Position numbers and translations under genes: made by a program. From Naegleria gruberi (taxonomy: Eukaryota): a DNA stretch of 64,000 nucleotides. The notes below the pieces were generated by a model. The model saw nothing but the letters and a program-made list of their open reading frames with translations. It was not told where the DNA came from and searched no databases. Below are positions 1 through 19,365 of the stretch, one piece after another; position 1 is the stretch's first letter, and every line of letters begins with the position of its first letter. Where the stretch lies: the NCBI GenBank assembly GCA_000004985.1, contig GG738904.1, one strand, 5' to 3'.

Positions 1-301
1 CCCAAACCCAAACCCAAACCCAAACCCAACCCAAACCCAAACCCAAACCCAAACCCAAACCCAAACCCAAACCCAAACCCAAACCCAAACCCAAACCCAA
101 CCCAAACCCAAACCCAAACCCAAACCCAAACCCAAACCCAAACCCAAACCCAAACCCAAACCCAAACCCAAACCCAAACCCAAACCCAAACCCAAACCCA
201 AACCCAAACCCAAACCCAAACCCAAACCCAAACCCAAACCCAAACCCAAACCCAAACCCAAACCCAAACCCAAACCCAAACCCAAACCCAAACCCAAACC
301 C
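1..301 (-). repeat. Terminal telomere array: (CCCAAA)n on the + strand, so the (TTTGGG)n G-strand runs toward the left end; about 50 units
   Basis: Direct reading shows perfect 6-nt periodicity from base 1. Two 5-nt CCCAA variant units lie near 25-29 and 96-100. The array ends abruptly at ...cccaaaccc|acgactaagg. The C-rich strand reading 5'->3' inward is the expected orientation for a left chromosome end. Confidence 0.9.
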
Positions 302-984
302 ACGACTAAGGTCAGACCCAACATTTTTACTTTTATTCATCTTAATTAATTATCTCAATAAATACTCATTATAAATCAATATATTATATATCAATATACT
401 CCAAATTGAATATATAATCATATAATAACATAATATTACATCATTATAATGACTTATATAAGTTAATTTCATATAATAGATTAGACAATTAGAATATCAA
501 TGAAAACATTTCAAATTCAATTCAAATAAATATATCACCTTGTGTATCATGTTAATAACAATATATATCAATTTCAAATACTTTGGTATCATTTCAGGAA
601 ATTAACTATTCAACTTGTCAACTGACCTATTCTAACATTGAAGATAGAATTCTGTTCCACTTCAATTCACTTCCAATACATATATACATGATAATAAAAT
701 ATATTAATATCATTTTGACATTCATCCATATTATACATGGTACATGGCTGATCCACTTGATACATACAGGATTGTGACATTGACATCTACTATACAGATC
801 ATTATGAAATTGATACAGTGCCTTACTAATGGTGAATAAACACTACTGTATCAGTTTCATGACAATTTGAAATCATTCAACATGTCAGGAGTGTAATCAT
901 GAGAATTATAAATGTCAAGATAATCAAATCATATTAAATTTAAAATCTTTCAATTACAATATCATATTTAGATCAATTAATCAT

Positions 985-3900
985 NNNNNNNNNNNNNNNN
1001 NNNNNNNNNNNNNNNNNNNNNNNNNNNNNNNNNNNNNNNNNNNNNNNNNNNNNNNNNNNNNNNNNNNNNNNNNNNNNNNNNNNNNNNNNNNNNNNNNNNN
1101 NNNNNNNNNNNNNNNNNNNNNNNNNNNNNNNNNNNNNNNNNNNNNNNNNNNNNNNNNNNNNNNNNNNNNNNNNNNNNNNNNNNNNNNNNNNNNNNNNNNN
1201 NNNNNNNNNNNNNNNNNNNNNNNNNNNNNNNNNNNNNNNNNNNNNNNNNNNNNNNNNNNNNNNNNNNNNNNNNNNNNNNNNNNNNNNNNNNNNNNNNNNN
1301 NNNNNNNNNNNNNNNNNNNNNNNNNNNNNNNNNNNNNNNNNNNNNNNNNNNNNNNNNNNNNNNNNNNNNNNNNNNNNNNNNNNNNNNNNNNNNNNNNNNN
1401 NNNNNNNNNNNNNNNNNNNNNNNNNNNNNNNNNNNNNNNNNNNNNNNNNNNNNNNNNNNNNNNNNNNNNNNNNNNNNNNNNNNNNNNNNNNNNNNNNNNN
1501 NNNNNNNNNNNNNNNNNNNNNNNNNNNNNNNNNNNNNNNNNNNNNNNNNNNNNNNNNNNNNNNNNNNNNNNNNNNNNNNNNNNNNNNNNNNNNNNNNNNN
1601 NNNNNNNNNNNNNNNNNNNNNNNNNNNNNNNNNNNNNNNNNNNNNNNNNNNNNNNNNNNNNNNNNNNNNNNNNNNNNNNNNNNNNNNNNNNNNNNNNNNN
1701 NNNNNNNNNNNNNNNNNNNNNNNNNNNNNNNNNNNNNNNNNNNNNNNNNNNNNNNNNNNNNNNNNNNNNNNNNNNNNNNNNNNNNNNNNNNNNNNNNNNN
1801 NNNNNNNNNNNNNNNNNNNNNNNNNNNNNNNNNNNNNNNNNNNNNNNNNNNNNNNNNNNNNNNNNNNNNNNNNNNNNNNNNNNNNNNNNNNNNNNNNNNN
1901 NNNNNNNNNNNNNNNNNNNNNNNNNNNNNNNNNNNNNNNNNNNNNNNNNNNNNNNNNNNNNNNNNNNNNNNNNNNNNNNNNNNNNNNNNNNNNNNNNNNN
2001 NNNNNNNNNNNNNNNNNNNNNNNNNNNNNNNNNNNNNNNNNNNNNNNNNNNNNNNNNNNNNNNNNNNNNNNNNNNNNNNNNNNNNNNNNNNNNNNNNNNN
2101 NNNNNNNNNNNNNNNNNNNNNNNNNNNNNNNNNNNNNNNNNNNNNNNNNNNNNNNNNNNNNNNNNNNNNNNNNNNNNNNNNNNNNNNNNNNNNNNNNNNN
2201 NNNNNNNNNNNNNNNNNNNNNNNNNNNNNNNNNNNNNNNNNNNNNNNNNNNNNNNNNNNNNNNNNNNNNNNNNNNNNNNNNNNNNNNNNNNNNNNNNNNN
2301 NNNNNNNNNNNNNNNNNNNNNNNNNNNNNNNNNNNNNNNNNNNNNNNNNNNNNNNNNNNNNNNNNNNNNNNNNNNNNNNNNNNNNNNNNNNNNNNNNNNN
2401 NNNNNNNNNNNNNNNNNNNNNNNNNNNNNNNNNNNNNNNNNNNNNNNNNNNNNNNNNNNNNNNNNNNNNNNNNNNNNNNNNNNNNNNNNNNNNNNNNNNN
2501 NNNNNNNNNNNNNNNNNNNNNNNNNNNNNNNNNNNNNNNNNNNNNNNNNNNNNNNNNNNNNNNNNNNNNNNNNNNNNNNNNNNNNNNNNNNNNNNNNNNN
2601 NNNNNNNNNNNNNNNNNNNNNNNNNNNNNNNNNNNNNNNNNNNNNNNNNNNNNNNNNNNNNNNNNNNNNNNNNNNNNNNNNNNNNNNNNNNNNNNNNNNN
2701 NNNNNNNNNNNNNNNNNNNNNNNNNNNNNNNNNNNNNNNNNNNNNNNNNNNNNNNNNNNNNNNNNNNNNNNNNNNNNNNNNNNNNNNNNNNNNNNNNNNN
2801 NNNNNNNNNNNNNNNNNNNNNNNNNNNNNNNNNNNNNNNNNNNNNNNNNNNNNNNNNNNNNNNNNNNNNNNNNNNNNNNNNNNNNNNNNNNNNNNNNNNN
2901 NNNNNNNNNNNNNNNNNNNNNNNNNNNNNNNNNNNNNNNNNNNNNNNNNNNNNNNNNNNNNNNNNNNNNNNNNNNNNNNNNNNNNNNNNNNNNNNNNNNN
3001 NNNNNNNNNNNNNNNNNNNNNNNNNNNNNNNNNNNNNNNNNNNNNNNNNNNNNNNNNNNNNNNNNNNNNNNNNNNNNNNNNNNNNNNNNNNNNNNNNNNN
3101 NNNNNNNNNNNNNNNNNNNNNNNNNNNNNNNNNNNNNNNNNNNNNNNNNNNNNNNNNNNNNNNNNNNNNNNNNNNNNNNNNNNNNNNNNNNNNNNNNNNN
3201 NNNNNNNNNNNNNNNNNNNNNNNNNNNNNNNNNNNNNNNNNNNNNNNNNNNNNNNNNNNNNNNNNNNNNNNNNNNNNNNNNNNNNNNNNNNNNNNNNNNN
3301 NNNNNNNNNNNNNNNNNNNNNNNNNNNNNNNNNNNNNNNNNNNNNNNNNNNNNNNNNNNNNNNNNNNNNNNNNNNNNNNNNNNNNNNNNNNNNNNNNNNN
3401 NNNNNNNNNNNNNNNNNNNNNNNNNNNNNNNNNNNNNNNNNNNNNNNNNNNNNNNNNNNNNNNNNNNNNNNNNNNNNNNNNNNNNNNNNNNNNNNNNNNN
3501 NNNNNNNNNNNNNNNNNNNNNNNNNNNNNNNNNNNNNNNNNNNNNNNNNNNNNNNNNNNNNNNNNNNNNNNNNNNNNNNNNNNNNNNNNNNNNNNNNNNN
3601 NNNNNNNNNNNNNNNNNNNNNNNNNNNNNNNNNNNNNNNNNNNNNNNNNNNNNNNNNNNNNNNNNNNNNNNNNNNNNNNNNNNNNNNNNNNNNNNNNNNN
3701 NNNNNNNNNNNNNNNNNNNNNNNNNNNNNNNNNNNNNNNNNNNNNNNNNNNNNNNNNNNNNNNNNNNNNNNNNNNNNNNNNNNNNNNNNNNNNNNNNNNN
3801 NNNNNNNNNNNNNNNNNNNNNNNNNNNNNNNNNNNNNNNNNNNNNNNNNNNNNNNNNNNNNNNNNNNNNNNNNNNNNNNNNNNNNNNNNNNNNNNNNNNN

Positions 3901-6105
3901 NNNNNNNNNNNNNNNNNNNNNNNNNNNNNNNNNNNNNNNNNNNNNNNNNNNNNNNNNNNNNNNNNNNNNNNNNNNNNNNNNNNNNNNNNNNNNNNNNNNN
4001 NNNNNNNNNNNNNNNNNNNNNNNNNNNNNNNNNNNNNNNNNNNNNNNNNNNNNNNNNNNNNNNNNNNNNNNNNNNNNNNNNNNNNNNNNNNNNNNNNNNN
4101 NNNNNNNNNNNNNNNNNNNNNNNNNNNNNNNNNNNNNNNNNNNNNNNNNNNNNNNNNNNNNNNNNNNNNNNNNNNNNNNNNNNNNNNNNNNNNNNNNNNN
4201 NNNNNNNNNNNNNNNNNNNNNNNNNNNNNNNNNNNNNNNNNNNNNNNNNNNNNNNNNNNNNNNNNNNNNNNNNNNNNNNNNNNNNNNNNNNNNNNNNNNN
4301 NNNNNNNNNNNNNNNNNNNNNNNNNNNNNNNNNNNNNNNNNNNNNNNNNNNNNNNNNNNNNNNNNNNNNNNNNNNNNNNNNNNNNNNNNNNNNNNNNNNN
4401 NNNNNNNNNNNNNNNNNNNNNNNNNNNNNNNNNNNNNNNNNNNNNNNNNNNNNNNNNNNNNNNNNNNNNNNNNNNNNNNNNNNNNNNNNNNNNNNNNNNN
4501 NNNNNNNNNNNNNNNNNNNNNNNNNNNNNNNNNNNNNNNNNNNNNNNNNNNNNNNNNNNNNNNNNNNNNNNNNNNNNNNNNNNNNNNNNNNNNNNNNNNN
4601 NNNNNNNNNNNNNNNNNNNNNNNNNNNNNNNNNNNNNNNNNNNNNNNNNNNNNNNNNNNNNNNNNNNNNNNNNNNNNNNNNNNNNNNNNNNNNNNNNNNN
4701 NNNNNNNNNNNNNNNNNNNNNNNNNNNNNNNNNNNNNNNNNNNNNNNNNNNNNNNNNNNNNNNNNNNNNNNNNNNNNNNNNNNNNNNNNNNNNNNNNNNN
4801 NNNNNNNNNNNNNNNNNNNNNNNNNNNNNNNNNNNNNNNNNNNNNNNNNNNNNNNNNNNNNNNNNNNNNNNNNNNNNNNNNNNNNNNNNNNNNNNNNNNN
4901 NNNNNNNNNNNNNNNNNNNNNNNNNNNNNNNNNNNNNNNNNNNNNNNNNNNNNNNNNNNNNNNNNNNNNNNNNNNNNNNNNNNNNNNNNNNNNNNNNNNN
5001 NNNNNNNNNNNNNNNNNNNNNNNNNNNNNNNNNNNNNNNNNNNNNNNNNNNNNNNNNNNNNNNNNNNNNNNNNNNNNNNNNNNNNNNNNNNNNNNNNNNN
5101 NNNNNNNNNNNNNNNNNNNNNNNNNNNNNNNNNNNNNNNNNNNNNNNNNNNNNNNNNNNNNNNNNNNNNNNNNNNNNNNNNNNNNNNNNNNNNNNNNNNN
5201 NNNNNNNNNNNNNNNNNNNNNNNNNNNNNNNNNNNNNNNNNNNNNNNNNNNNNNNNNNNNNNNNNNNNNNNNNNNNNNNNNNNNNNNNNNNNNNNNNNNN
5301 NNNNNNNNNNNNNNNNNNNNNNNNNNNNNNNNNNNNNNNNNNNNNNNNNNNNNNNNNNNNNNNNNNNNNNNNNNNNNNNNNNNNNNNNNNNNNNNNNNNN
5401 NNNNNNNNNNNNNNNNNNNNNNNNNNNNNNNNNNNNNNNNNNNNNNNNNNNNNNNNNNNNNNNNNNNNNNNNNNNNNNNNNNNNNNNNNNNNNNNNNNNN
5501 NNNNNNNNNNNNNNNNNNNNNNNNNNNNNNNNNNNNNNNNNNNNNNNNNNNNNNNNNNNNNNNNNNNNNNNNNNNNNNNNNNNNNNNNNNNNNNNNNNNN
5601 NNNNNNNNNNNNNNNNNNNNNNNNNNNNNNNNNNNNNNNNNNNNNNNNNNNNNNNNNNNNNNNNNNNNNNNNNNNNNNNNNNNNNNNNNNNNNNNNNNNN
5701 NNNNNNNNNNNNNNNNNNNNNNNNNNNNNNNNNNNNNNNNNNNNNNNNNNNNNNNNNNNNNNNNNNNNNNNNNNNNNNNNNNNNNNNNNNNNNNNNNNNN
5801 NNNNNNNNNNNNNNNNNNNNNNNNNNNNNNNNNNNNNNNNNNNNNNNNNNNNNNNNNNNNNNNNNNNNNNNNNNNNNNNNNNNNNNNNNNNNNNNNNNNN
5901 NNNNNNNNNNNNNNNNNNNNNNNNNNNNNNNNNNNNNNNNNNNNNNNNNNNNNNNNNNNNNNNNNNNNNNNNNNNNNNNNNNNNNNNNNNNNNNNNNNNN
6001 NNNNNNNNNNNNNNNNNNNNNNNNNNNNNNNNNNNNNNNNNNNNNNNNNNNNNNNNNNNNNNNNNNNNNNNNNNNNNNNNNNNNNNNNNNNNNNNNNNNN
6101 NNNNN
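985..6105. other. Assembly gap (5121 N)
   Basis: Run of n characters. Confidence 1.
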
Positions 6106-6107
6106 AC

Positions 6108-6539
6108 TCAATTTTACTAGGTAACGACAGTATTTGTGACAAATGTAATGTCAAGGAAGATTGGACCCACGTATTCCAAACTTGTCCCAAATGCAATCCT
6201 GAAAAGGATGAACTGTATGCCACATGGGACGCTATCTCCCAGAAATTTAGCCTTAACAAGATTCGTTTCCCTCCTGATATCTCAGAATCCTCTCAACTTA
6301 GGATAGAATTTGATGGTCGTTGCTCCCGTAATGACTGGCTTAACTGGTCTAAGCGCAAAAGAATACCTAAGAATGTGGCCCTAGAAGTCTACAAAGCACT
6401 AGCTATTTATTTGGAAAATTGCTACAAGAACTCAGTGTGGTACAACCGTCCCAATGCAGGCTTCACTATTAACAGGAAATACCTCTCTGCCTACCACAGG
6501 CAGGCTCAGTCTAACCAACCACTTAGCGTCAACCCATAA
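6108..6539 (+). mobile_element. 3' end of a non-LTR (LINE-like) retrotransposon ORF2: C-terminal zinc-binding (zf-RVT type) region; the rest of the element is lost in the gap
   Basis: An open frame runs out of the gap to TAA at 6537-6539. It translates as SILLGNDSICDKCNVKEDWTHVFQTCPKCNPEKDELYATWDAI... The C-x2-C-x3-ED-x2-H-x-F-x2-CP pattern is typical of the Cys/His motif that ends non-LTR RT ORFs. GC content is visibly higher than the flanks. Confidence 0.6.
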
Positions 6540-6610
6540 CACTTAAACGCTGAACCGAAACTTACTGGTTGTAGACCTCGTCTCTCAGGTCTTTACGATA
6601 CAAGAGACGT
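6540..6610 (+). mobile_element. Retroelement 3' UTR with a conserved hairpin core (agacc-N9-ggtct)
   Basis: The sequence cttaaacgctgaaccgaaacttactggttgtagacctcgtctctcaggtct recurs in inverted orientation at 19304-19365. Confidence 0.5.
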
Positions 6611-7305
6611 TAATAAAATCACAATTTACTTTTGCAGGTTCTACCACTTCTTGATTACTAGCAAGCTTCAACTCCATTTCACTTAGTCTTGAAAGAAGTA
6701 CATCCATGTTCGCAATATTCCTTCTTGATTTGACTCTAGCTGTACCATTATTCCTGCAAGACTCAACATCTTCCGACTCAGATGAAGAAGGAGAGGATGA
6801 CGAGGAGTCGGTTCTTCTAGAGTGATTCAGAGGAATACTCTGGCTTGTGCTTCCCGAGTCTGAATGATGATGTCTACCAAATTGTCAACTGACCTATCAG
6901 AAGGTAGTTGAATGCCCATTGATTCAATGAGTTCCTCTAATTGATCAATAGAGCACTCTGATAATTCATTTCTTGATTTAAAATACATCTTTCGGAATTA
7001 ATTTGAGACTTCAAGGTATAAATGGGAAGTAGAATCAACAAGTGTTAAAACCATCTTTTATTACACAAAACAAAAGAAATATCCAATTGTCACAATTGAA
7101 CAATACAATAGATTGAAACTTTTCCAAATTACCATTTGAATCGGGAAGTGATGATGATTTTAGTGAACAATATTAAATTTCACTAAAATATTAATATTAT
7201 CAGATTTCCACAAATATTACTATTATAATGATGATAAATAACAATGATGATGGTTGGTAGTTGTTCCGATGTGATGGAACACGGTAGTATCTGGAATTGA
7301 AAAAA

Positions 7306-7513
7306 ATGACTCAAGTCTCTAAAGGTTTGTGTAATGATCAAAGTTTGCTAATAATTGTAATAGAAATATTTTCTGATGATGTAATTTATGAAATTATTTC
7401 CTATTTATGTGATGATTGGAAATTCGTATTATTAAATTGCGTAATGGTAACAAAACAATGGTTGAACGTCATCCGAGATCGATCCGAGCTTTCAATGATG
7501 GCGAATAATCATT
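7306..7513 (+). CDS. F-box-like protein, N-terminal fragment truncated by the gap
   Basis: ATG at 7306. The peptide ...QSLLIIVIEIFSDDVIYEIISYLCDDWKFVLLNCVMVTKQWLNVI fits the F-box pattern (L..E.L..I..YL......L..V.K.W). The frame runs into N at 7514. Confidence 0.45.
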
Positions 7514-10500
7514 NNNNNNNNNNNNNNNNNNNNNNNNNNNNNNNNNNNNNNNNNNNNNNNNNNNNNNNNNNNNNNNNNNNNNNNNNNNNNNNNNNNNNNN
7601 NNNNNNNNNNNNNNNNNNNNNNNNNNNNNNNNNNNNNNNNNNNNNNNNNNNNNNNNNNNNNNNNNNNNNNNNNNNNNNNNNNNNNNNNNNNNNNNNNNNN
7701 NNNNNNNNNNNNNNNNNNNNNNNNNNNNNNNNNNNNNNNNNNNNNNNNNNNNNNNNNNNNNNNNNNNNNNNNNNNNNNNNNNNNNNNNNNNNNNNNNNNN
7801 NNNNNNNNNNNNNNNNNNNNNNNNNNNNNNNNNNNNNNNNNNNNNNNNNNNNNNNNNNNNNNNNNNNNNNNNNNNNNNNNNNNNNNNNNNNNNNNNNNNN
7901 NNNNNNNNNNNNNNNNNNNNNNNNNNNNNNNNNNNNNNNNNNNNNNNNNNNNNNNNNNNNNNNNNNNNNNNNNNNNNNNNNNNNNNNNNNNNNNNNNNNN
8001 NNNNNNNNNNNNNNNNNNNNNNNNNNNNNNNNNNNNNNNNNNNNNNNNNNNNNNNNNNNNNNNNNNNNNNNNNNNNNNNNNNNNNNNNNNNNNNNNNNNN
8101 NNNNNNNNNNNNNNNNNNNNNNNNNNNNNNNNNNNNNNNNNNNNNNNNNNNNNNNNNNNNNNNNNNNNNNNNNNNNNNNNNNNNNNNNNNNNNNNNNNNN
8201 NNNNNNNNNNNNNNNNNNNNNNNNNNNNNNNNNNNNNNNNNNNNNNNNNNNNNNNNNNNNNNNNNNNNNNNNNNNNNNNNNNNNNNNNNNNNNNNNNNNN
8301 NNNNNNNNNNNNNNNNNNNNNNNNNNNNNNNNNNNNNNNNNNNNNNNNNNNNNNNNNNNNNNNNNNNNNNNNNNNNNNNNNNNNNNNNNNNNNNNNNNNN
8401 NNNNNNNNNNNNNNNNNNNNNNNNNNNNNNNNNNNNNNNNNNNNNNNNNNNNNNNNNNNNNNNNNNNNNNNNNNNNNNNNNNNNNNNNNNNNNNNNNNNN
8501 NNNNNNNNNNNNNNNNNNNNNNNNNNNNNNNNNNNNNNNNNNNNNNNNNNNNNNNNNNNNNNNNNNNNNNNNNNNNNNNNNNNNNNNNNNNNNNNNNNNN
8601 NNNNNNNNNNNNNNNNNNNNNNNNNNNNNNNNNNNNNNNNNNNNNNNNNNNNNNNNNNNNNNNNNNNNNNNNNNNNNNNNNNNNNNNNNNNNNNNNNNNN
8701 NNNNNNNNNNNNNNNNNNNNNNNNNNNNNNNNNNNNNNNNNNNNNNNNNNNNNNNNNNNNNNNNNNNNNNNNNNNNNNNNNNNNNNNNNNNNNNNNNNNN
8801 NNNNNNNNNNNNNNNNNNNNNNNNNNNNNNNNNNNNNNNNNNNNNNNNNNNNNNNNNNNNNNNNNNNNNNNNNNNNNNNNNNNNNNNNNNNNNNNNNNNN
8901 NNNNNNNNNNNNNNNNNNNNNNNNNNNNNNNNNNNNNNNNNNNNNNNNNNNNNNNNNNNNNNNNNNNNNNNNNNNNNNNNNNNNNNNNNNNNNNNNNNNN
9001 NNNNNNNNNNNNNNNNNNNNNNNNNNNNNNNNNNNNNNNNNNNNNNNNNNNNNNNNNNNNNNNNNNNNNNNNNNNNNNNNNNNNNNNNNNNNNNNNNNNN
9101 NNNNNNNNNNNNNNNNNNNNNNNNNNNNNNNNNNNNNNNNNNNNNNNNNNNNNNNNNNNNNNNNNNNNNNNNNNNNNNNNNNNNNNNNNNNNNNNNNNNN
9201 NNNNNNNNNNNNNNNNNNNNNNNNNNNNNNNNNNNNNNNNNNNNNNNNNNNNNNNNNNNNNNNNNNNNNNNNNNNNNNNNNNNNNNNNNNNNNNNNNNNN
9301 NNNNNNNNNNNNNNNNNNNNNNNNNNNNNNNNNNNNNNNNNNNNNNNNNNNNNNNNNNNNNNNNNNNNNNNNNNNNNNNNNNNNNNNNNNNNNNNNNNNN
9401 NNNNNNNNNNNNNNNNNNNNNNNNNNNNNNNNNNNNNNNNNNNNNNNNNNNNNNNNNNNNNNNNNNNNNNNNNNNNNNNNNNNNNNNNNNNNNNNNNNNN
9501 NNNNNNNNNNNNNNNNNNNNNNNNNNNNNNNNNNNNNNNNNNNNNNNNNNNNNNNNNNNNNNNNNNNNNNNNNNNNNNNNNNNNNNNNNNNNNNNNNNNN
9601 NNNNNNNNNNNNNNNNNNNNNNNNNNNNNNNNNNNNNNNNNNNNNNNNNNNNNNNNNNNNNNNNNNNNNNNNNNNNNNNNNNNNNNNNNNNNNNNNNNNN
9701 NNNNNNNNNNNNNNNNNNNNNNNNNNNNNNNNNNNNNNNNNNNNNNNNNNNNNNNNNNNNNNNNNNNNNNNNNNNNNNNNNNNNNNNNNNNNNNNNNNNN
9801 NNNNNNNNNNNNNNNNNNNNNNNNNNNNNNNNNNNNNNNNNNNNNNNNNNNNNNNNNNNNNNNNNNNNNNNNNNNNNNNNNNNNNNNNNNNNNNNNNNNN
9901 NNNNNNNNNNNNNNNNNNNNNNNNNNNNNNNNNNNNNNNNNNNNNNNNNNNNNNNNNNNNNNNNNNNNNNNNNNNNNNNNNNNNNNNNNNNNNNNNNNNN
10001 NNNNNNNNNNNNNNNNNNNNNNNNNNNNNNNNNNNNNNNNNNNNNNNNNNNNNNNNNNNNNNNNNNNNNNNNNNNNNNNNNNNNNNNNNNNNNNNNNNNN
10101 NNNNNNNNNNNNNNNNNNNNNNNNNNNNNNNNNNNNNNNNNNNNNNNNNNNNNNNNNNNNNNNNNNNNNNNNNNNNNNNNNNNNNNNNNNNNNNNNNNNN
10201 NNNNNNNNNNNNNNNNNNNNNNNNNNNNNNNNNNNNNNNNNNNNNNNNNNNNNNNNNNNNNNNNNNNNNNNNNNNNNNNNNNNNNNNNNNNNNNNNNNNN
10301 NNNNNNNNNNNNNNNNNNNNNNNNNNNNNNNNNNNNNNNNNNNNNNNNNNNNNNNNNNNNNNNNNNNNNNNNNNNNNNNNNNNNNNNNNNNNNNNNNNNN
10401 NNNNNNNNNNNNNNNNNNNNNNNNNNNNNNNNNNNNNNNNNNNNNNNNNNNNNNNNNNNNNNNNNNNNNNNNNNNNNNNNNNNNNNNNNNNNNNNNNNNN

Positions 10501-13500
10501 NNNNNNNNNNNNNNNNNNNNNNNNNNNNNNNNNNNNNNNNNNNNNNNNNNNNNNNNNNNNNNNNNNNNNNNNNNNNNNNNNNNNNNNNNNNNNNNNNNNN
10601 NNNNNNNNNNNNNNNNNNNNNNNNNNNNNNNNNNNNNNNNNNNNNNNNNNNNNNNNNNNNNNNNNNNNNNNNNNNNNNNNNNNNNNNNNNNNNNNNNNNN
10701 NNNNNNNNNNNNNNNNNNNNNNNNNNNNNNNNNNNNNNNNNNNNNNNNNNNNNNNNNNNNNNNNNNNNNNNNNNNNNNNNNNNNNNNNNNNNNNNNNNNN
10801 NNNNNNNNNNNNNNNNNNNNNNNNNNNNNNNNNNNNNNNNNNNNNNNNNNNNNNNNNNNNNNNNNNNNNNNNNNNNNNNNNNNNNNNNNNNNNNNNNNNN
10901 NNNNNNNNNNNNNNNNNNNNNNNNNNNNNNNNNNNNNNNNNNNNNNNNNNNNNNNNNNNNNNNNNNNNNNNNNNNNNNNNNNNNNNNNNNNNNNNNNNNN
11001 NNNNNNNNNNNNNNNNNNNNNNNNNNNNNNNNNNNNNNNNNNNNNNNNNNNNNNNNNNNNNNNNNNNNNNNNNNNNNNNNNNNNNNNNNNNNNNNNNNNN
11101 NNNNNNNNNNNNNNNNNNNNNNNNNNNNNNNNNNNNNNNNNNNNNNNNNNNNNNNNNNNNNNNNNNNNNNNNNNNNNNNNNNNNNNNNNNNNNNNNNNNN
11201 NNNNNNNNNNNNNNNNNNNNNNNNNNNNNNNNNNNNNNNNNNNNNNNNNNNNNNNNNNNNNNNNNNNNNNNNNNNNNNNNNNNNNNNNNNNNNNNNNNNN
11301 NNNNNNNNNNNNNNNNNNNNNNNNNNNNNNNNNNNNNNNNNNNNNNNNNNNNNNNNNNNNNNNNNNNNNNNNNNNNNNNNNNNNNNNNNNNNNNNNNNNN
11401 NNNNNNNNNNNNNNNNNNNNNNNNNNNNNNNNNNNNNNNNNNNNNNNNNNNNNNNNNNNNNNNNNNNNNNNNNNNNNNNNNNNNNNNNNNNNNNNNNNNN
11501 NNNNNNNNNNNNNNNNNNNNNNNNNNNNNNNNNNNNNNNNNNNNNNNNNNNNNNNNNNNNNNNNNNNNNNNNNNNNNNNNNNNNNNNNNNNNNNNNNNNN
11601 NNNNNNNNNNNNNNNNNNNNNNNNNNNNNNNNNNNNNNNNNNNNNNNNNNNNNNNNNNNNNNNNNNNNNNNNNNNNNNNNNNNNNNNNNNNNNNNNNNNN
11701 NNNNNNNNNNNNNNNNNNNNNNNNNNNNNNNNNNNNNNNNNNNNNNNNNNNNNNNNNNNNNNNNNNNNNNNNNNNNNNNNNNNNNNNNNNNNNNNNNNNN
11801 NNNNNNNNNNNNNNNNNNNNNNNNNNNNNNNNNNNNNNNNNNNNNNNNNNNNNNNNNNNNNNNNNNNNNNNNNNNNNNNNNNNNNNNNNNNNNNNNNNNN
11901 NNNNNNNNNNNNNNNNNNNNNNNNNNNNNNNNNNNNNNNNNNNNNNNNNNNNNNNNNNNNNNNNNNNNNNNNNNNNNNNNNNNNNNNNNNNNNNNNNNNN
12001 NNNNNNNNNNNNNNNNNNNNNNNNNNNNNNNNNNNNNNNNNNNNNNNNNNNNNNNNNNNNNNNNNNNNNNNNNNNNNNNNNNNNNNNNNNNNNNNNNNNN
12101 NNNNNNNNNNNNNNNNNNNNNNNNNNNNNNNNNNNNNNNNNNNNNNNNNNNNNNNNNNNNNNNNNNNNNNNNNNNNNNNNNNNNNNNNNNNNNNNNNNNN
12201 NNNNNNNNNNNNNNNNNNNNNNNNNNNNNNNNNNNNNNNNNNNNNNNNNNNNNNNNNNNNNNNNNNNNNNNNNNNNNNNNNNNNNNNNNNNNNNNNNNNN
12301 NNNNNNNNNNNNNNNNNNNNNNNNNNNNNNNNNNNNNNNNNNNNNNNNNNNNNNNNNNNNNNNNNNNNNNNNNNNNNNNNNNNNNNNNNNNNNNNNNNNN
12401 NNNNNNNNNNNNNNNNNNNNNNNNNNNNNNNNNNNNNNNNNNNNNNNNNNNNNNNNNNNNNNNNNNNNNNNNNNNNNNNNNNNNNNNNNNNNNNNNNNNN
12501 NNNNNNNNNNNNNNNNNNNNNNNNNNNNNNNNNNNNNNNNNNNNNNNNNNNNNNNNNNNNNNNNNNNNNNNNNNNNNNNNNNNNNNNNNNNNNNNNNNNN
12601 NNNNNNNNNNNNNNNNNNNNNNNNNNNNNNNNNNNNNNNNNNNNNNNNNNNNNNNNNNNNNNNNNNNNNNNNNNNNNNNNNNNNNNNNNNNNNNNNNNNN
12701 NNNNNNNNNNNNNNNNNNNNNNNNNNNNNNNNNNNNNNNNNNNNNNNNNNNNNNNNNNNNNNNNNNNNNNNNNNNNNNNNNNNNNNNNNNNNNNNNNNNN
12801 NNNNNNNNNNNNNNNNNNNNNNNNNNNNNNNNNNNNNNNNNNNNNNNNNNNNNNNNNNNNNNNNNNNNNNNNNNNNNNNNNNNNNNNNNNNNNNNNNNNN
12901 NNNNNNNNNNNNNNNNNNNNNNNNNNNNNNNNNNNNNNNNNNNNNNNNNNNNNNNNNNNNNNNNNNNNNNNNNNNNNNNNNNNNNNNNNNNNNNNNNNNN
13001 NNNNNNNNNNNNNNNNNNNNNNNNNNNNNNNNNNNNNNNNNNNNNNNNNNNNNNNNNNNNNNNNNNNNNNNNNNNNNNNNNNNNNNNNNNNNNNNNNNNN
13101 NNNNNNNNNNNNNNNNNNNNNNNNNNNNNNNNNNNNNNNNNNNNNNNNNNNNNNNNNNNNNNNNNNNNNNNNNNNNNNNNNNNNNNNNNNNNNNNNNNNN
13201 NNNNNNNNNNNNNNNNNNNNNNNNNNNNNNNNNNNNNNNNNNNNNNNNNNNNNNNNNNNNNNNNNNNNNNNNNNNNNNNNNNNNNNNNNNNNNNNNNNNN
13301 NNNNNNNNNNNNNNNNNNNNNNNNNNNNNNNNNNNNNNNNNNNNNNNNNNNNNNNNNNNNNNNNNNNNNNNNNNNNNNNNNNNNNNNNNNNNNNNNNNNN
13401 NNNNNNNNNNNNNNNNNNNNNNNNNNNNNNNNNNNNNNNNNNNNNNNNNNNNNNNNNNNNNNNNNNNNNNNNNNNNNNNNNNNNNNNNNNNNNNNNNNNN

Positions 13501-13723
13501 NNNNNNNNNNNNNNNNNNNNNNNNNNNNNNNNNNNNNNNNNNNNNNNNNNNNNNNNNNNNNNNNNNNNNNNNNNNNNNNNNNNNNNNNNNNNNNNNNNNN
13601 NNNNNNNNNNNNNNNNNNNNNNNNNNNNNNNNNNNNNNNNNNNNNNNNNNNNNNNNNNNNNNNNNNNNNNNNNNNNNNNNNNNNNNNNNNNNNNNNNNNN
13701 NNNNNNNNNNNNNNNNNNNNNNN
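7514..13723. other. Assembly gap (6210 N)
   Basis: Run of n characters. Confidence 1.
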
Positions 13724-14154
13724 CCCTAACCCAAACCCAAACCCAAAGCCAAACCCAAACCCAAACCCAAACCCAAACCCAAGCCCAAACCCAAACCCAA
13801 ACCCAAACCCAAACCCAAACCCAAACCCAAACCCAAACCCAAACCCAAACCCAAACCCAAACCCAAACCCAAACCCAAACCCAAACCCAAACCCAAACCC
13901 AAACCCAAACCCAACCCAAACCCAAACCCAAACCCAAACCCAAACCCAAACCCAAACCCAAACCCAAACCCAAACCCAAACCCAAACCCAAACCCAAACC
14001 CAAACCCAAACCCAAACCCAAACCCAAACCCAAACCCAAACCCAAACCCAAACCCAAACCCAAACCCAAACCCAAACCCAAACCCAAACCCAAACCCAAA
14101 CCCAAACCCAAACCCAAACCCAAACCCAAACCCAAACCCAAACCCAAACCCAAA
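13724..14154 (-). repeat. Second, internal telomere-type array, (CCCAAA)n of about 72 units, in the same orientation as the terminal array
   Basis: It starts immediately after the gap. Variant units (ccctaa, caaagc, caagcc, one cccaa) sit in the left part. It is perfect up to the junction ...cccaaac|taaaaatag. Degenerate telomere-like remnants (aaacccaacgttcaaaccctagccc) follow to about 14200. Confidence 0.9.
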
Positions 14155-15022
14155 CTAAAAATAGAATTCTTCTAAACCCAACGTTCAAACCCTAGCCCAA
14201 AATTATAAACTTATTCAAATATCATTAAATTTTATATCATTCGATTGGAAATTATGAGTAGAACAACGTGGTATATTTAGTTTTTCAATTTATAAAATAT
14301 TAAATTTGTTAATAATGTCAGATTAAAATTTCATAAATGAAACTATAGGAAGAATGATAATTTCAAAATCGTTTAATGAGATTATATAGTCAATATCATC
14401 ATTAACAACATTCATAATCACTTTCATATGAAATTTCAAAGGTTCATGTCTGTAGATATAAAAGTATCAAGTGAAAAGGGAAGATGTGAGGTAAAAGAGG
14501 TCAACAATAACTTTTGAGTTTCTCATCAAAACATATTGAATCCTAATATGAAAATGTTCCATTTGATGATTAAACATCGAATATCAAATTTATTTTGACT
14601 TTCATATTTACAGATTTCTTCCCTCAATCACACATGGTCAACTTGTATGAAAAGGAGGAAATCTTGAAAAAGGACCACCTATTGAAACTTTACCATCATG
14701 ATGTAGATGATATATAATGATGTAGAATTCAATTTCATATCATAAGAATTAGAAATGGTACCATGGGAATGTAAATGTTGATTTTCCAAAGTTGACTGAN
14801 AGGAAAGACAAGTCAGACCAAGTCTATCAAATATATCACTTCAATCAACAAATTATACATGAAAATGCTCCATTCGATGNNNNNNNNNNNNNNNNNNNNN
14901 NNNNNNNNNNNNNNNNNNNNNNNNNNNNNCATGAGTGCAGAACTGAGTTATTCAAAATTTGTGAATGTTCGGTCCAGTCAAATCAAAGATGGGTTCTTAA
15001 CTACCCATAGGTTTGCATTCTT

Positions 15023-16101
15023 CTAGATATTATTGAGCACATTCTCCATCTCTATTCTTTCAATTTCCTCCGTTGTAAAGTTTCCTTTCATTGGAATAAA
15101 CACATGATCGTAAAAGGCCTTGAACCAATAACTCACTGGACAACATCTATTAAAATTCTCTTCAGAGCCTGTATGTACTCCTATTACTGATCGATCAAGA
15201 ATTACATTCTCCTTAAAGTCTCTCCAATTGCTATAATTTTCACAACAAGGAAGAACAGCACCGCCTGAAGAGCCTGGAAATGAGCTGGCGTTATAGTGTT
15301 TACAACATGTTTTTTCGTTAGTATCAACAAATTTTCCAAAGCTAATATTTTTACACTCCAACTCAAACATACTCTTTAAGGCAATAAGATTTGTGTGATA
15401 ATCTAAATGTTGTTCTAAAGTTGTTACATCTTTCTCAGTTGGCATGCCTTGAAAGGAAAGAATAGACATGTTATAATCATGTTCTGATTGAGGGTTGAGC
15501 TTTGAAGGACTTGGAATAAGGTATGATTCTGGAAAATGTTGTTCATCTAATACTATATCGATTGGTACTTCCATTTTCATCAAAACCCAATCTTTGTTTG
15601 GATGTTCCTTTACATTTTCATCCTCTTTCAGATCTGATTTTGCAAGAATGGTGCAATTCATGGATCTGGCACTTAACGGCTCAAACCTATGATTCTTCCC
15701 TAAAATTCCTTTAATCATTCTTAAAGAAAGTTGCACTACTTCATTATTGTATTCATATTCAAAAGGAAGAGTGTTATGCAAGCATGTCACAAAGTAATAT
15801 TCCCAAATAGTGTCGAGTTTGTTTGGAGGAGCAACAAGGAAGCCAGAACCCCGAATTGGAACTCTAACATCAATTTGTTTAGAATTAACACCTTGATAAA
15901 AACAAACTACATCAACAACAGCATTAAAAACATCCAGATTATCCTTTGCAGATTTTAAATCATAACAACTACAAATTCTGGGATAGGTTGTTAATCGGAA
16001 GGGATTGAGGCAACCTGTTAAATCCTCAAAACAATTCCTTGATTTTTCATCAACAATTAACATCTCCTCCGACACAGTGGTAGAGTACTTATTCATCGAT
16101 G
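15023..16101 (-). CDS. Trypsin-fold (S1/PA clan) serine peptidase-like protein, paralog A; its 5' end abuts a 50-N gap
   Basis: Candidate catalytic triad: YYFVTCLHN (His), KDWVLMKM (Asp, compare DIALLKL) and FPGSSGGAV (GxSGG Ser). It is about 95% identical to paralog B. No signal peptide is evident. Confidence 0.65.
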
Positions 16102-16810: not shown

Positions 16811-17851
16811 TCAACTCTGAATCCTAACCAAACCCTCTATTCTTTCAATTTCCTCCGTTGTAAAGTTTCCTTTCATTGAAACAAACACATGATCGTAAAA
16901 GGCCTTGAACCAATAACTCACTGGACAACATCTATTAAAATTCTCTTCAGAGCCTATATGTATTCCTATTACTGATCTATCAAGAATAACATTCTCCTTA
17001 AAGTCTCTCCAATTGCTATAATTTTCACAACAAGGCACCACAGCACCGCCTGAAGAGCCTGGAAATGAGCTGGCGTTATAGTTACATGTTTTTTCGTTAG
17101 TATCAACAAATTTTCCAAAGCTAATATTTTTACACTCCAACTCAAACATACTCTTTAAGGCAATAAGATTTGTGTGATGTTCTGATTGAGGGTTGAGCTT
17201 TGAAGGACTTGGAATAAGGTATGATTCTGGAAAATATTGTTCATCCAATACTACATCAATTGGCACTTCCATTTTCATCAAAACCCAATCATTGTTTGGA
17301 TGTTTCTTTACATTTTCATCTTCTTTCAGACCTGATTTTGCAAGAATGGTGCAATTCATAGATCTGGTACTTAATGGCTCAAACCTATGATTCTTCCCTA
17401 AAATTCCTTTCATCATTCTTAAAGAAAGTTGCACTACTTCATTATTGTATTCATATTCAAAAGGAAGAGTGTTATGCAAGCATGTCACAAAGTAATATTC
17501 CCAAATAGTGTCGAGTTTGTTTGGAGGAGCAACAAGGAAGCCAGAACCACGAATTGGAACTCTAACATCAATTTGTTTAGAATTAATACCTTGATAAAAA
17601 CAAACTACATCAACAACAGCATTAAAAACATCCAGATTATCCTTTGCAGATTTTAAATCATAATAACTACAAATTCTGGGATAGGTTGTTAATCGGAAGG
17701 GATTGAGGCAACCTGTTAAATCCTCAAAACAATTCCTTGATTTTTCATCAACAATTAACATCTCCTCCGACACAGTGGTAGAGTACTTATTCATCGATGG
17801 TTTCATAATTTCAATGTCATTGATTGGAATAGATTCTGCTGGTGAGAACAT
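16811..17851 (-). CDS. Trypsin-fold serine peptidase-like protein, paralog B (tandem duplicate of A)
   Basis: ATG at 17851, 346 aa, with the same H/D/S motifs as A. Relative to A it has an in-frame 81-nt deletion (27 aa, DYNMSILSFQGMPTEKDVTTLEQHLDY), a 6-nt indel, and a different last 7-8 codons. Confidence 0.7.
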   Translation of the reverse strand: MFSPAESIPINDIEIMKPSMNKYSTTVSEEMLIVDEKSRNCFEDLTGCLNPFRLTTYPRICSYYDLKSAKDNLDVFNAVVDVVCFYQGINSKQIDVRVPIRGSGFLVAPPNKLDTIWEYYFVTCLHNTLPFEYEYNNEVVQLSLRMMKGILGKNHRFEPLSTRSMNCTILAKSGLKEDENVKKHPNNDWVLMKMEVPIDVVLDEQYFPESYLIPSPSKLNPQSEHHTNLIALKSMFELECKNISFGKFVDTNEKTCNYNASSFPGSSGGAVVPCCENYSNWRDFKENVILDRSVIGIHIGSEENFNRCCPVSYWFKAFYDHVFVSMKGNFTTEEIERIEGLVRIQS

Positions 17852-17998: not shown

Positions 17999-19303
17999 AT
18001 GAGATTTGTTCGACAAATGTTAGAGGTTATAGTGCCTCAATCCGAAACTGATGATTCGGTCGATGTGTATTCAAAGGATAACTTTAGTGAAGTTTGTTTT
18101 AATGTGTTTAGAGTAGCTGATAATGGTGATTTAATTCCTCCATCCACCAAATTTTCTCTTAGAAAATTATATTTGCTATCAACCATTAAGGATTATTTGA
18201 TGAAGGCTAAATGTGGGATGGCTCGAATAGGTCAGCCAAGTTCAACAGGTTTAGGTGGAAACGGTACTTGCTTTTATTTGCTTCCCAATGTTGTTATCAC
18301 AAACTCTCACGTGGCAAATACAGATGAAATCCCATTGATCTACACAGGCACATATTCCGAAGCAGTTGAAGGCTATTTTCAAAAACTCAATCCTGTTGAA
18401 AGCAAGTTGCTTTTCTCTGGATCATCTATGCAGCATCAAATGCGGAAATATAATCATTCCTTAACAAGAACACATTTCCCTCAAGTTGACGAAACATATT
18501 TAGATCCTATTATTTCTTTACGTGGTGATTTTGGTTATATGGATATTTCCTTGCACAAAATTGCATTTCCAAATAATATGCAAAGTTCTAAAGTATTAAT
18601 GATCCCCTGTCCAGAAATCTTACAAGTTTCAGATCCCATATTTACAATGCATTATCCTGGAGTTGAAGGAACACAATTTTCAAGTCTCCACAGCAACCAA
18701 TTTTCAAATTATTTACATTGGGCACCAAATGACAATGTTGTTTCCGATTTATTTCATGGTTATGGAAAACTATGCATCAGTACTGGTAAAGTTCTGGCTC
18801 CATATGTTGAAGAGAAGCAAGAAAATGGGAACATTGATTGGGTTCCAAATACTTCACATCAATATAACTCTCAAAACTCTAATTTTCTTATAACTAATGA
18901 GAGCGTAACGATAGGTTCATCTGGAGGATGTGTTCAATCTCCAACATGTAGGGTTATTGAAATTAATGGAATTACCTTAGTAGAGTTTCATGCCATCCAT
19001 TTTGGAGGACAATTTGTCAAGTGTAAGAATTGCTTAAAGCACATCAAACAACAAATGAATGAAAATGATGAAGATGAATATCCATCCTTATTCCAAGGTT
19101 TACCTCAAGAATGGAACTTTTGCGAAGCATGTCAAAATGGAAAAGAATCCTCCAAAATGGTGTACAATTACTCTGTTTCAGTTCATCATCCATTGTTGAA
19201 ACAAGTTTACAAGAAATTAATTGCACCAGATTTGTTAACAGTATTGAATGTGAATTTGTCTGATGAGAGATTAGAAAGGCTGAAACAATATTTAGACATG
19301 TAA
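17999..19303 (+). CDS. Trypsin-fold serine peptidase-like protein, divergent paralog C, with a C-terminal CxxC...CxxC zinc-ribbon-like tail
   Basis: Motifs: GNGTCFYLLPNVVITNSHVANTD (His), GDFGYMDISLHKI (Asp) and TIGSSGGCV (Ser). The C-terminus reads KCKNCLKH...NFCEACQNG. It is transcribed divergently from paralog B across a 147-bp spacer. Confidence 0.65.
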   Translation: MRFVRQMLEVIVPQSETDDSVDVYSKDNFSEVCFNVFRVADNGDLIPPSTKFSLRKLYLLSTIKDYLMKAKCGMARIGQPSSTGLGGNGTCFYLLPNVVITNSHVANTDEIPLIYTGTYSEAVEGYFQKLNPVESKLLFSGSSMQHQMRKYNHSLTRTHFPQVDETYLDPIISLRGDFGYMDISLHKIAFPNNMQSSKVLMIPCPEILQVSDPIFTMHYPGVEGTQFSSLHSNQFSNYLHWAPNDNVVSDLFHGYGKLCISTGKVLAPYVEEKQENGNIDWVPNTSHQYNSQNSNFLITNESVTIGSSGGCVQSPTCRVIEINGITLVEFHAIHFGGQFVKCKNCLKHIKQQMNENDEDEYPSLFQGLPQEWNFCEACQNGKESSKMVYNYSVSVHHPLLKQVYKKLIAPDLLTVLNVNLSDERLERLKQYLDM

Positions 19304-19365
19304 CGGAGACCTTTTAATTAAGACGAGGTCTACAACCATTAGGTTTTCGTTTAAGCGTTCTTCAA
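19304..19365 (-). mobile_element. 5'-truncated copy of the retroelement 3' UTR, inverted relative to 6540-6610
   Basis: The reverse complement reads acgcttaaacgaaaacctaatggttgtagacctcgtcttaattaaaaggtctccgtta. It shares the 17-mer ggttgtagacctcgtct and the agacc/ggtct hairpin with 6543-6600. It starts directly after the stop codon of protease C. Confidence 0.55.

What the first reader, a model, noticed from the sequence alone, without database searches (positions are those of the whole stretch)
6108..6610. Telomere-proximal non-LTR retroelement whose 3' UTR hairpin recurs as a truncated inverted copy against a protease gene stop codon
The only visible part of the element is the last 143 codons of ORF2 plus the 3' UTR. 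Its 5' end points toward the telomere, the orientation seen for telomere-associated retrotransposons in other organisms. A 55-60 bp copy of the UTR, sharing the 17-mer ggttgtagacctcgtct and the agacc/ggtct stem, lies inverted at 19304-19365, beginning one nt after the TAA of protease paralog C. A 3'-end-only copy is what 5'-truncated target-primed reverse transcription produces. This indicates the family has been active in this subtelomere and may supply the 3' end of a host gene.
Basis: partly seen in the sequence, partly recalled or inferred. Interest (0 to 1): 0.5.

Follow-up and report, generated by a model that had tools for sequence, protein, structure and literature searches.

The report
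Naegleria LINE tail plus stray UTR fragment
The sequence is the 3' end of an ordinary, recently active jumping gene (an APE-type LINE) near a chromosome end of the amoeba Naegleria gruberi.

Summary
The window is the end of a Naegleria gruberi NEG-M scaffold. Positions 6108-6536 are the last 143 codons of ORF2 of a multi-copy LINE; the stop codon is 6537-6539. At least five other near-identical copies lie on other scaffolds. Relatives show the architecture: ORF1 with an RRM and a coiled coil, then ORF2 with an APE endonuclease, a reverse transcriptase and a CCHC tail.

The 3' UTR runs to about 6629, not 6610, and has no poly(A) tail. Its last 57 nt, including a stem-loop at 6579-6609, are more conserved between diverged family members than the ORF is.

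The inverted match at the protease gene is real. The core is 6546-6583 against 19359-19321, 34 of 39 identical, far above shuffled controls. It covers the lineage-specific upstream UTR and only the 5' half of the conserved stem-loop. It lacks the terminal 37 nt and has no ORF2 remnant beside it. It is therefore not a canonical 5'-truncated TPRT copy. An eroded relic or a short repair patch is more likely.

The protease stop codon position is ancestral. "Telomere-proximal" is unproven: two assembly gaps and a second telomere array at 13724-14165 separate this piece from the rest of the scaffold.

Verdict: an ordinary LINE of low interest.

The parts
1..301 (+). Terminal telomere array (CCCAAA)n. 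It joins unique DNA abruptly at 301/302.
   Evidence: TTTGGG is reported as the N. gruberi candidate telomere repeat (PMC3622300).
985..6105 (.). Assembly gap of 5121 N. It probably holds the body of the LINE: 5' UTR, ORF1, and the APE-RT part of ORF2.
   Evidence: The related 5.5-kb contig L007 implies a full length of at least about 5.2 kb. The gap plus the 524 visible nt gives 5.6 kb. This is inference; the sequence is not visible.
6108..6539 (+). Last 143 codons of LINE ORF2, with a CCHC (CX2CX7HX4C) C-terminal domain and the TAA stop at 6537-6539.
   Evidence: tblastn gives 98.6-99.3% identity to N. gruberi P0024 and P0006. Family members carry RVT_1 and APE domains.
6540..6572 (+). Upstream, lineage-specific part of the 3' UTR. 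It is not conserved in related elements, and it is the part that recurs at 19332-19359.
   Evidence: 14-42% identity between family members over this part, with lengths of 8-59 nt..
6573..6629 (+). Conserved 57-nt 3' terminal module: the AGACCU/AGGUCU stem, the stem-loop at 6579-6609, AAUAAA, and the end ...ACAAUUUAC. There is no poly(A) tail.
   Evidence: 77-86% identity across members whose last 300 nt of ORF are 65-68% identical. (the same hairpin is predicted in all three). (93% of cells paired, no covariation).
6585..6998 (-). Convergent host gene remnant. Its reading frame crosses the LINE 3' junction (6629/6630) and stops inside the LINE UTR.
   Evidence: ORFs 6827-6988 and 6585-6707 on the minus strand.
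7514..13723 (.). Second assembly gap of 6210 N, separating the LINE-bearing contig from the rest of the scaffold.
13724..14165 (+). Second telomere-repeat array, in the same orientation as the terminal one. Degenerate repeats follow at its inner edge (14166-14205).
17999..19303 (+). Trypsin-like serine protease gene (XP_002671532, NAEGRDRAFT_73298). The stop is TAA at 19301-19303, at the ancestral position.
19307..19359 (-). Inverted 53-nt fragment homologous to LINE UTR 6546-6592. The core is 19321-19359, 34/39 identical. It retains AGACC/GGTCT but lacks the 3' arm of the stem-loop and the terminal 37 nt.
   Evidence: (I1). No ORF2 remnant nearby.

Best explanation
Positions 6108-6629 are the 3' end of a young, multi-copy APE-type LINE of Naegleria gruberi. 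The family architecture is ORF1 with an RRM and a coiled coil, then ORF2 with APE, RT and a CCHC tail. The element's body most likely fills the 5.1-kb assembly gap, because near-identical copies elsewhere would have broken the Sanger assembly at that point (inferred).

The family carries no poly(A) tail. Instead it keeps a 57-nt 3' terminal module: a stem-loop at 6579-6609, AAUAAA, and a fixed end. I infer that this module is the cis-element its reverse transcriptase recognises to start target-primed reverse transcription, as in 'stringent' LINEs.

The 53-nt inverted stretch behind the protease stop codon (19307-19359) is true homology to the N. gruberi-specific upstream part of that UTR. It is truncated on both sides and lacks the recognition module. 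It is therefore not a canonical 5'-truncated insertion. Two origins are most likely:
- An old insertion (about 13% diverged) whose 3' end was later deleted.
- A short piece of LINE cDNA captured at a DNA break or internally primed. A 4-nt TTAC microhomology sits next to the junction, but that is weak evidence.

The fragment did not create the gene's stop codon. Telomere proximity of the element is a property of the scaffold, not a demonstrated property of the family.
For: Organism:
- Three window ORFs are exact N. gruberi RefSeq proteins on a 297,120-bp scaffold.

LINE identity:
- An exhaustive HMMER search with the tail finds N. gruberi P0006, P0022, P0023 and P0024, plus RT-bearing relatives.
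- RVT_1 scores E 4e-39, 2e-37 and 1e-33 in P0011, P0012 and P0037.
- The RT domain matches R2 (1e-24) and L1 ORF2p (2e-15) among solved structures.
- Exo_endo_phos_2 scores E 1.9e-5, with GDLN and RPDH motifs. RRM_1 scores E 4e-4, next to a coiled coil.
- P0039 shows the ORF2 N-terminus '...VINIQESHW' and is 99% identical to P0024.
- Contig L007 shows ORF1 of 524 aa followed by an APE-RT ORF2.

3' module:
- The terminal 57 nt are 77-86% identical between members. The last 300 nt of the ORF are 65-68% identical and the upstream UTR 14-42%.
- The same hairpin is predicted in all three members, and 93% of cells pair.
- The flanks diverge right after ...AATTTAY, with no A-run.

Fragment:
- The match is significant.
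- There is no adjacent ORF2 remnant.
- The stop codon column is conserved in 4 orthologues and paralogues.
- The motif is absent after the N. lovaniensis stop.
Against: - The RT and most of the APE domain of this particular copy are hidden in the gap. The domain evidence comes from other copies and relatives.
- The APE and RRM Pfam scores are just below the curated cut-offs.
- The stem-loop has no covariation support (3 sequences, all stems invariant). Its folding z-scores are weak, -0.1 to -1.25.
- The proposed origin of the fragment is inference from its anatomy alone. No second copy of the fragment, no target-site duplication and no polymorphism data were available, because N. gruberi genomic DNA outside the window could not be reached.
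Confidence: 0.7

Rival explanations
1. The fragment is a 5'-truncated TPRT insertion of a telomere-associated retrotransposon family, and it now supplies the 3' end or polyadenylation region of the protease gene.
For: - The homology is real and inverted, and it starts 3 nt after the TAA.
- The family has near-identical copies, so it has been active recently.
- The one visible copy lies 6 kb from a telomere array with its 5' end facing outward.
Against: - A TPRT product keeps the RNA's 3' terminus. This fragment lacks the terminal 37 nt and the 3' arm of the conserved stem-loop.
- The element's 3' junction is with gene sequence, not telomere repeats.
- Relatives on contigs L001, L002, L004, L005 and L007 show no telomere repeats.
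- The stop codon position pre-dates the fragment.
- Orientation from one copy is a coin toss.
Confidence: 0.1
2. Reverse direction of transfer. The N. gruberi LINE lineage picked up the segment 6546-6592 from host DNA, for example by template switching onto an antisense transcript of the protease 3' region. On this reading the protease-side copy is the original.
For: - The shared segment lies in the UTR part that is not conserved between family members and varies from 8 to 59 nt in length.
- LINE UTRs are known to turn over rapidly (general knowledge).
Against: - The shared stretch runs into the conserved module. AGACCTCGTCT...GGTCT is also present in L001 and L002 elements from other sources. 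At least that part is therefore element-derived.
- The N. lovaniensis orthologue lacks the sequence.
Confidence: 0.08
3. Chance resemblance or convergent low-complexity sequence, with no common origin.
For: - The match is short (39-nt core).
- The repeat finder lists seven other inverted pairs of 30 nt or more in this AT-rich window.
Against: - The pair has the highest complementarity of all listed inverted pairs, 87% against 71-81%.
- The alignment score lies about 10 sd above shuffled queries.
- blastn gives E 3.4e-6.
- The exact 17-mer is expected 0.03 times.
Confidence: 0.04
4. A scaffolding artefact creates the apparent telomere proximity. The true chromosome end would be the array at 13724-14165, and contigs 1-984 and 6106-7513 belong elsewhere, joined through ambiguous mate pairs in telomere or LINE repeats.
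For: - Two telomere arrays in the same orientation lie 13.4 kb apart, separated by two large gaps.
- The inner array has the degenerate inner-edge repeats typical of a native subtelomere junction.
- The LINE is a multi-copy, near-identical repeat.
Against: - Both small contigs contain unique sequence that could anchor mate pairs correctly.
- A LINE body and a long repeat array are exactly what would cause genuine gaps at these positions.
- Interstitial telomere arrays do exist in other genomes (general knowledge).
Confidence: 0.4

Closest known systems
APE-type non-LTR retrotransposons (LINEs) with an RRM-containing ORF1 and a C-terminal CCHC in ORF2, such as L1/Tx1-like elements
   Same: - Two ORFs.
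- An RRM plus a coiled coil in ORF1.
- An N-terminal APE endonuclease, an RT domain and a CX2CX7HX4C tail in ORF2.
- Multiple copies, some 5'-truncated (P0023, L001).
   Different: - No poly(A) tail.
- In ORF1 the RRM precedes the coiled coil.
- By sequence the RT scores better against R2 than against L1 among solved structures.
- The clade was not determined because no reference RT set was available.
'Stringent' LINEs that need a conserved 3' stem-loop (eel UnaL2 and the L2/CR1/RTE types; from general knowledge)
   Same: - The 3' terminal module with a short stem-loop is conserved above the level of the coding sequence.
- There is no poly(A) tail and the 3' end is fixed.
   Different: - Function was not tested.
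- No covariation.
- No terminal microsatellite-type repeat is visible.
Endonuclease-independent or repair-associated LINE insertions, and filler-DNA capture at double-strand breaks (described for human L1; from general knowledge)
   Same: - The fragment is short and truncated at both 5' and 3' ends.
- It lacks the element's terminus.
- It shows no clear target-site duplication.
- Only 4 nt of junction microhomology are present.
   Different: - There is no experimental or population evidence here.
- Simple erosion of an old insertion explains the anatomy equally well.
Telomere-associated retrotransposons (Drosophila HeT-A/TART/TAHRE, Bombyx TRAS/SART, Giardia GilT/GilM, Chlorella Zepp; from general knowledge)
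   Same: - One copy lies near a telomere array with its 5' end facing the chromosome end.
- A second telomere array lies further inside.
   Different: - The 3' junction is with a host gene, not telomere repeats or another element.
- Other copies sit on large scaffolds at unknown positions.
- Relatives' contigs contain no telomere repeats.
- The host has ordinary telomerase-type repeats.

Membership tests
Non-LTR retrotransposon (LINE), APE type | Reverse transcriptase domain of the non-LTR type | tested here: met
   - This copy's RT is not visible because it lies in the gap.
- Relatives with the same C-terminal tail carry RVT_1 at E 4e-39, 2e-37, 1e-33 and 6e-28.
- These relatives match R2 and L1 ORF2p structures.
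Non-LTR retrotransposon (LINE), APE type | N-terminal apurinic/apyrimidinic-like endonuclease in ORF2 | tested here: met
   - N. gruberi copies P0024 and P0039 hit Exo_endo_phos_2 at E 1.9e-5 and 1.3e-4.
- P0039 (E 2.7e-4) and the relative P0037 (E 1.7e-3) also hit Exo_endo_phos.
- All scores are just below Pfam's cut-offs, but the QE, GDLN and RPDH motifs are present.
- More distant relatives carry PF03372 and PF14529.
Non-LTR retrotransposon (LINE), APE type | C-terminal cysteine-histidine motif after the RT | tested here: met
   CDKCNVKEDWTHVFQTC lies at window 6135-6185. C10, C13, H21 and C26 are invariant in 10 family members.
Non-LTR retrotransposon (LINE), APE type | Target-site duplication flanking the insertion | not testable with these tools
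   The 5' end of the window copy lies in the gap 985-6105. Other N. gruberi copies could not be fetched.
Non-LTR retrotransposon (LINE), APE type | Dispersed multiple copies, including 5'-truncated ones | tested here: met
   - Six loci lie on six scaffolds in NEG-M.
- P0023 and L001 look 5'-truncated.
Canonical 5'-truncated TPRT insertion (applied to fragment 19307-19359) | Retains the element's 3' terminus, co-linear up to the last base or tail | tested here: not met
   The fragment stops at the position equivalent to 6592. It lacks 6593-6629, including the 3' arm of the stem-loop, AATAAA and the end.
Canonical 5'-truncated TPRT insertion (applied to fragment 19307-19359) | Target-site duplication | tested here: inconclusive
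   Only a weak ACATG(T)AAC against ACATGAAC resemblance is seen in the flanks by eye. It is not distinguishable from chance.
Telomere-specific or telomere-associated retrotransposons | 3' end joined to telomere repeats or to another element in a terminal array | tested here: not met
   - The 3' junction at 6629/6630 is with a convergent host ORF.
- No telomere repeats occur in the relatives' contigs.
Telomere-specific or telomere-associated retrotransposons | Enrichment of copies at chromosome ends | not testable with these tools
   - Positions of the other five copies are unknown.
- N. gruberi DNA is not in the position index.
Stringent-type LINE 3' end | Conserved 3' terminal stem-loop and absence of poly(A) | tested here: inconclusive
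   - Sequence conservation is met: 77-86% against 65-68% in the ORF.
- The hairpin is predicted in 3 of 3 members.
- There is no poly(A) tail.
- There is no covariation, the z-scores are weak, and no functional test was possible.

The most novel reading that the evidence does not exclude
The scaffold is correct and the layout is real: telomere, 0.7 kb, a full-length LINE with its 5' end outward, two genes, an interstitial telomere array, then the old subtelomere. That layout would record a Naegleria chromosome end that was extended beyond its former telomere, with this LINE family preferentially colonising or helping to rebuild chromosome ends. The abrupt junction at 301/302 would then mark de novo telomere addition.
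Probability: 0.07. Interest if true: 0.6.

Novelty: new member of a known kind. Interest (0 to 1): 0.22.

Why it matters
The finding gives a first anatomical description of a young LINE family in N. gruberi. It defines the 3' end and a candidate cis-acting 3' module, which is useful for repeat annotation. Several RefSeq 'predicted proteins' are chimeric or partial models of this element: P0024 fuses an EGF-repeat host protein to ORF1/ORF2, and P0038, from the second subfamily, fuses a PB1 domain to an ORF2 tail.

It also flags that this scaffold end carries two telomere arrays separated by gaps, so any subtelomere analysis based on it needs long-read confirmation. The inverted UTR scrap itself has no demonstrated consequence for the protease gene.

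Tried and rejected
- Pfam on the 143-aa tail alone gave nothing.
- The word-indexed protein search with the tail returned only two environmental fragments and missed the N. gruberi copies. The exhaustive HMMER search was needed.
- Fetching N. gruberi DNA around other LINE copies, around the protease paralogue P0031, or around the window's own gene failed. N. gruberi is not in the gene-position index. Genome-wide copy mapping and the 'common UTR motif' test could therefore only be done inside the window.
- The metagenome scan gave one distant locus without a usable 3' end.
- L004, L005 and L008 contigs end before, or are too diverged at, the 3' UTR.
- L007 is broken before the tail.
- Scans of viral and prokaryotic genome collections for the conserved stem-loop found nothing.
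- Rfam found nothing anywhere in the window.
- I considered whether the tail is a degenerate R2-type restriction-like endonuclease (CCHC followed by PD...D...K). I rejected this because PD and the acidic residue are not conserved in relatives, the PDB profile search matches R2 only over the RT, thumb and CCHC regions, and the family has an APE domain.
- I considered a SINE or MITE sharing the LINE tail. There is no tRNA-like or repeated sequence next to the fragment, and the terminal module that a partner SINE would share is missing.
- The literature search found no description of this family or of Naegleria subtelomeric retroelements.
- RT clade phylogeny was not done because no reference set was available offline.

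Full report
**Source and layout.** Three ORFs of the window are exact matches to RefSeq proteins of Naegleria gruberi NEG-M on a 297,120-bp scaffold. One of them is the 'protease' gene 17999-19303, which is XP_002671532. The window starts with about 50 copies of CCCAAA at 1-301. TTTGGG is the published candidate telomere repeat of N. gruberi (PMC3622300).

The window contains six N runs:
- 985-6105 (5121 N)
- 7514-13723 (6210 N)
- a single N at 14800
- two 50-N runs
- 59750-60919

Only 1408 bases (6106-7513) are therefore visible between the two large gaps. That small contig carries the finding.

**Checking the observation.**
- Frame 6108-6536 is open for 143 codons and ends in TAA at 6537-6539. 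It contains CDKCNVKEDWTHVFQTC, a CX2CX7HX4C motif.
- The 17-mer GGTTGTAGACCTCGTCT occurs only at 6567-6583 (+) and 19321-19337 (-). Shuffles give 0.03 expected hits, even allowing 3 mismatches.
- The repeat finder lists the pair as I1, the most complementary inverted repeat in the window at 87%.
- A local alignment of the UTR against the rest of the window scores 51. Two hundred shuffled queries gave 26.8 +/- 2.5, with a maximum of 36.
- The gapped core is 6546-6583 against 19359-19321, 34/39 identical. blastn gives E 3.4e-6.
- After a 5-nt length difference, AGGTCT matches again, which carries the homology to 19307, 3 nt after the protease TAA (19301-19303).

The sequence facts are real and not due to chance.

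**What the ORF tail belongs to.** Pfam sees nothing in the 143 residues alone. The word-indexed search found only two environmental fragments. An exhaustive profile search found 17 proteins.

Cluster look-up shows N. gruberi proteins P0006, P0022, P0023 and P0024 on four other scaffolds. tblastn puts P0006 and P0024 at 98.6-99.3% identity to the window tail, and P0022 and P0023 carry the same tail. P0039 lies on a fifth scaffold; its ORF2 N-terminal region is 99% identical to P0024 and its tail is close to P0024's.

The domain evidence comes from these copies and from relatives:
- P0024 is a chimeric gene model. After a host EGF-repeat protein it contains an RRM (E 4e-4), a long coiled coil and an endonuclease segment with GDLN and RPDH motifs. 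That segment hits Exo_endo_phos_2 at E 1.9e-5 and 24.9 bits, just under the 27.4-bit cut-off.
- P0039 begins with '...LDVINIQESHW', the N-terminal APE motif.
- More distant relatives with the same tail carry RVT_1 at E 4e-39, 2e-37, 6e-28 and 1e-33.
- The RT of relative P0011 matches R2 (1e-24) and human L1 ORF2p (2e-15) among solved structures.
- A 5.5-kb environmental contig, L007, shows a 524-aa ORF1 followed by an APE-RT ORF2. It implies a full length of at least about 5.2 kb.

That length fits the 5121-N gap plus the 524 visible bases. I infer that the gap is the LINE body, which could not be assembled because of its near-identical copies. A second subfamily, P0038, is 60% identical in the tail.

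I considered an R2-like restriction-type endonuclease in the tail and rejected it. The PD and acidic positions are not conserved, and the family has an APE domain.

**The 3' end.** Three family members with complete 3' ends were available: the window, L001 and L002. Their ORF2 tails are 61-66% identical in protein. They align up to ...ACAATTTAY and diverge immediately afterwards, without an A-run. The element therefore ends at about 6629, not 6610.

The last 57 nt are 77-86% identical between the three. This compares with 65-68% for the last 300 nt of the ORF and 14-42% for the upstream UTR, whose length varies from 8 to 59 nt.

RNA folding predicts the same hairpin in all three. It is CGUCUCU-CAG-GUC-UUUAC-GAU-ACA-AGAGACG, at 6579-6609. 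On the alignment, 93% of cells pair, but every stem column is invariant apart from the outermost pair, which forms only in the window copy. Covariation therefore neither supports nor refutes the hairpin. The z-scores are weak, -0.1 to -1.25.

It is incompatible with the inner GUC/GAU pairs. It could only coexist with the main stem as an H-type pseudoknot, which is my reading of the sequences and was not tested.

By analogy with stringent LINEs, I infer that this module is the RT's recognition site.

**The inverted fragment.**
- It overlaps the non-conserved, N. gruberi-specific part of the UTR (6546-6572) plus the first 20 nt of the conserved module.
- It lacks 6593-6629, which is the 3' arm of the stem-loop, AATAAA and the terminus.
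- No ORF2-like coding remnant lies next to it or anywhere else in the window (tblastn).

A TPRT product starts at the RNA's 3' end, so a copy missing that end is not a canonical 5'-truncated insertion.

The protease C-terminus ends at the same alignment column in a 73%-identical N. gruberi paralogue, in N. lovaniensis and in Willaertia magna. The N. lovaniensis gene has an unrelated sequence after its stop. The stop codon is therefore ancestral, and the fragment was added, or is what remains, immediately downstream.

The fragment has about 13% divergence from the present UTR. The dispersed copies are near-identical in protein (98.6-99.3% for P0006 and P0024 against the window tail). This suggests the fragment is older than the current burst.

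Two origins fit the anatomy:
- Erosion of an old insertion.
- Capture of a short LINE cDNA at a break, or internal priming. The plus strand ends ...ATGTAA, and the RNA has UUAC directly after GGUCU. That is a 4-nt microhomology separated from the copied part by 3 extra bases, and it is weak evidence.

Capture of host sequence by the LINE is less likely. The shared stretch includes bases that are also present in elements from other sources.

Whether the fragment matters for the protease mRNA 3' end cannot be judged here. In mRNA sense the region folds somewhat better than shuffles (z -2.5, 4 of 200 shuffles), which is not compelling.

**Telomere context.** Its inner edge has degenerate repeats, whereas the terminal array joins unique DNA abruptly at 301/302.

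Two readings are possible:
- The scaffold mis-joins two small contigs outside the real chromosome end.
- The inner array is genuinely interstitial.

Both remain open. In either case the LINE's 3' end abuts a convergent host ORF that reads into the LINE UTR, not telomere repeats. Contigs of relatives contain no telomere repeats. One copy in one orientation is no evidence for a telomere-directed family. The positions of the other five copies could not be obtained.

**Comparison and novelty.** This is an APE-type LINE with an RRM/coiled-coil ORF1, a CCHC tail, no poly(A) and a conserved 3' module. It is a new member of a known kind. The papers I could search report only bulk LINE content for Naegleria (0.25% in N. 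lovaniensis, PMC6125883). None describes this family or subtelomeric retroelements. The clade was not determined.

**Verdict.** The mechanism proposed for the inverted copy is not supported, and the telomere link is unproven. Interest is low.

Noticed in passing
window 13724-14165: A second telomere-repeat array: CCCTAA followed by about 73 CCCAAA repeats, in the same orientation as the terminal array. It sits directly after the 6210-N gap, and degenerate repeats follow at 14166-14205. This is either a scaffold mis-join or a true interstitial telomere array.
   Followed up: partly
window 301/302: The terminal telomere array joins unique AT-rich DNA abruptly (...cccaaaccca|cgactaagg), without degenerate repeats. 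This is the pattern expected after de novo telomere addition. The 683 bp that follow resemble nothing else in the window beyond short matches of up to 35 nt with E of 0.01 or higher.
   Followed up: partly
window 6585-6998 (- strand): A convergent host gene remnant (ORFs 6827-6988 and 6585-6707) reads across the LINE 3' junction and stops inside the LINE UTR. The LINE may have replaced the original 3' end of that gene.
   Followed up: no
window 611-630 and 6878-6897: A 20-mer caaNttgtcaactgacctat (19/20 identical, same strand) lies on both sides of gap 1 plus the LINE. blastn gives E about 0.01. It could be chance or a trace of duplicated flank.
   Followed up: no
window 15023-16096 and 16811-17851 (- strand): Two tandem genes that are 96% identical at the DNA level (repeat families D3, D6 and D11). 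They encode distant (24%) relatives of the protease with a PGSSGGAV motif. One of them carries an internal deletion relative to the other.
   Followed up: partly
window 58972-59529 (+), 58890-58974 and 62545-62629: A histone-fold protein (Pfam Histone, E 4e-37) with a long N-terminal tail built of 12-nt KTPS-type repeats. Its 85-nt upstream block recurs 3.65 kb downstream at 89% identity, where no ORF follows.
   Followed up: partly
window 34684-34984: A dense array of imperfect CACAGGTACC(A/G)T-type repeats with 12/32/44-nt spacing (repeat families D5 and D7), directly downstream of ORF 34076-34618. Its nature was not examined.
   Followed up: no
RefSeq models P0024 (XP_002673784), P0038, P0039, P0006, P0022, P0023: Several N. 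gruberi 'predicted proteins' are partial or chimeric gene models of this LINE family and a sister subfamily. P0024 fuses an EGF-repeat host protein to ORF1/ORF2. P0038 fuses a PB1 domain to an ORF2 tail. In P0024 and P0039 the RT core is spliced out or deleted.
   Followed up: partly
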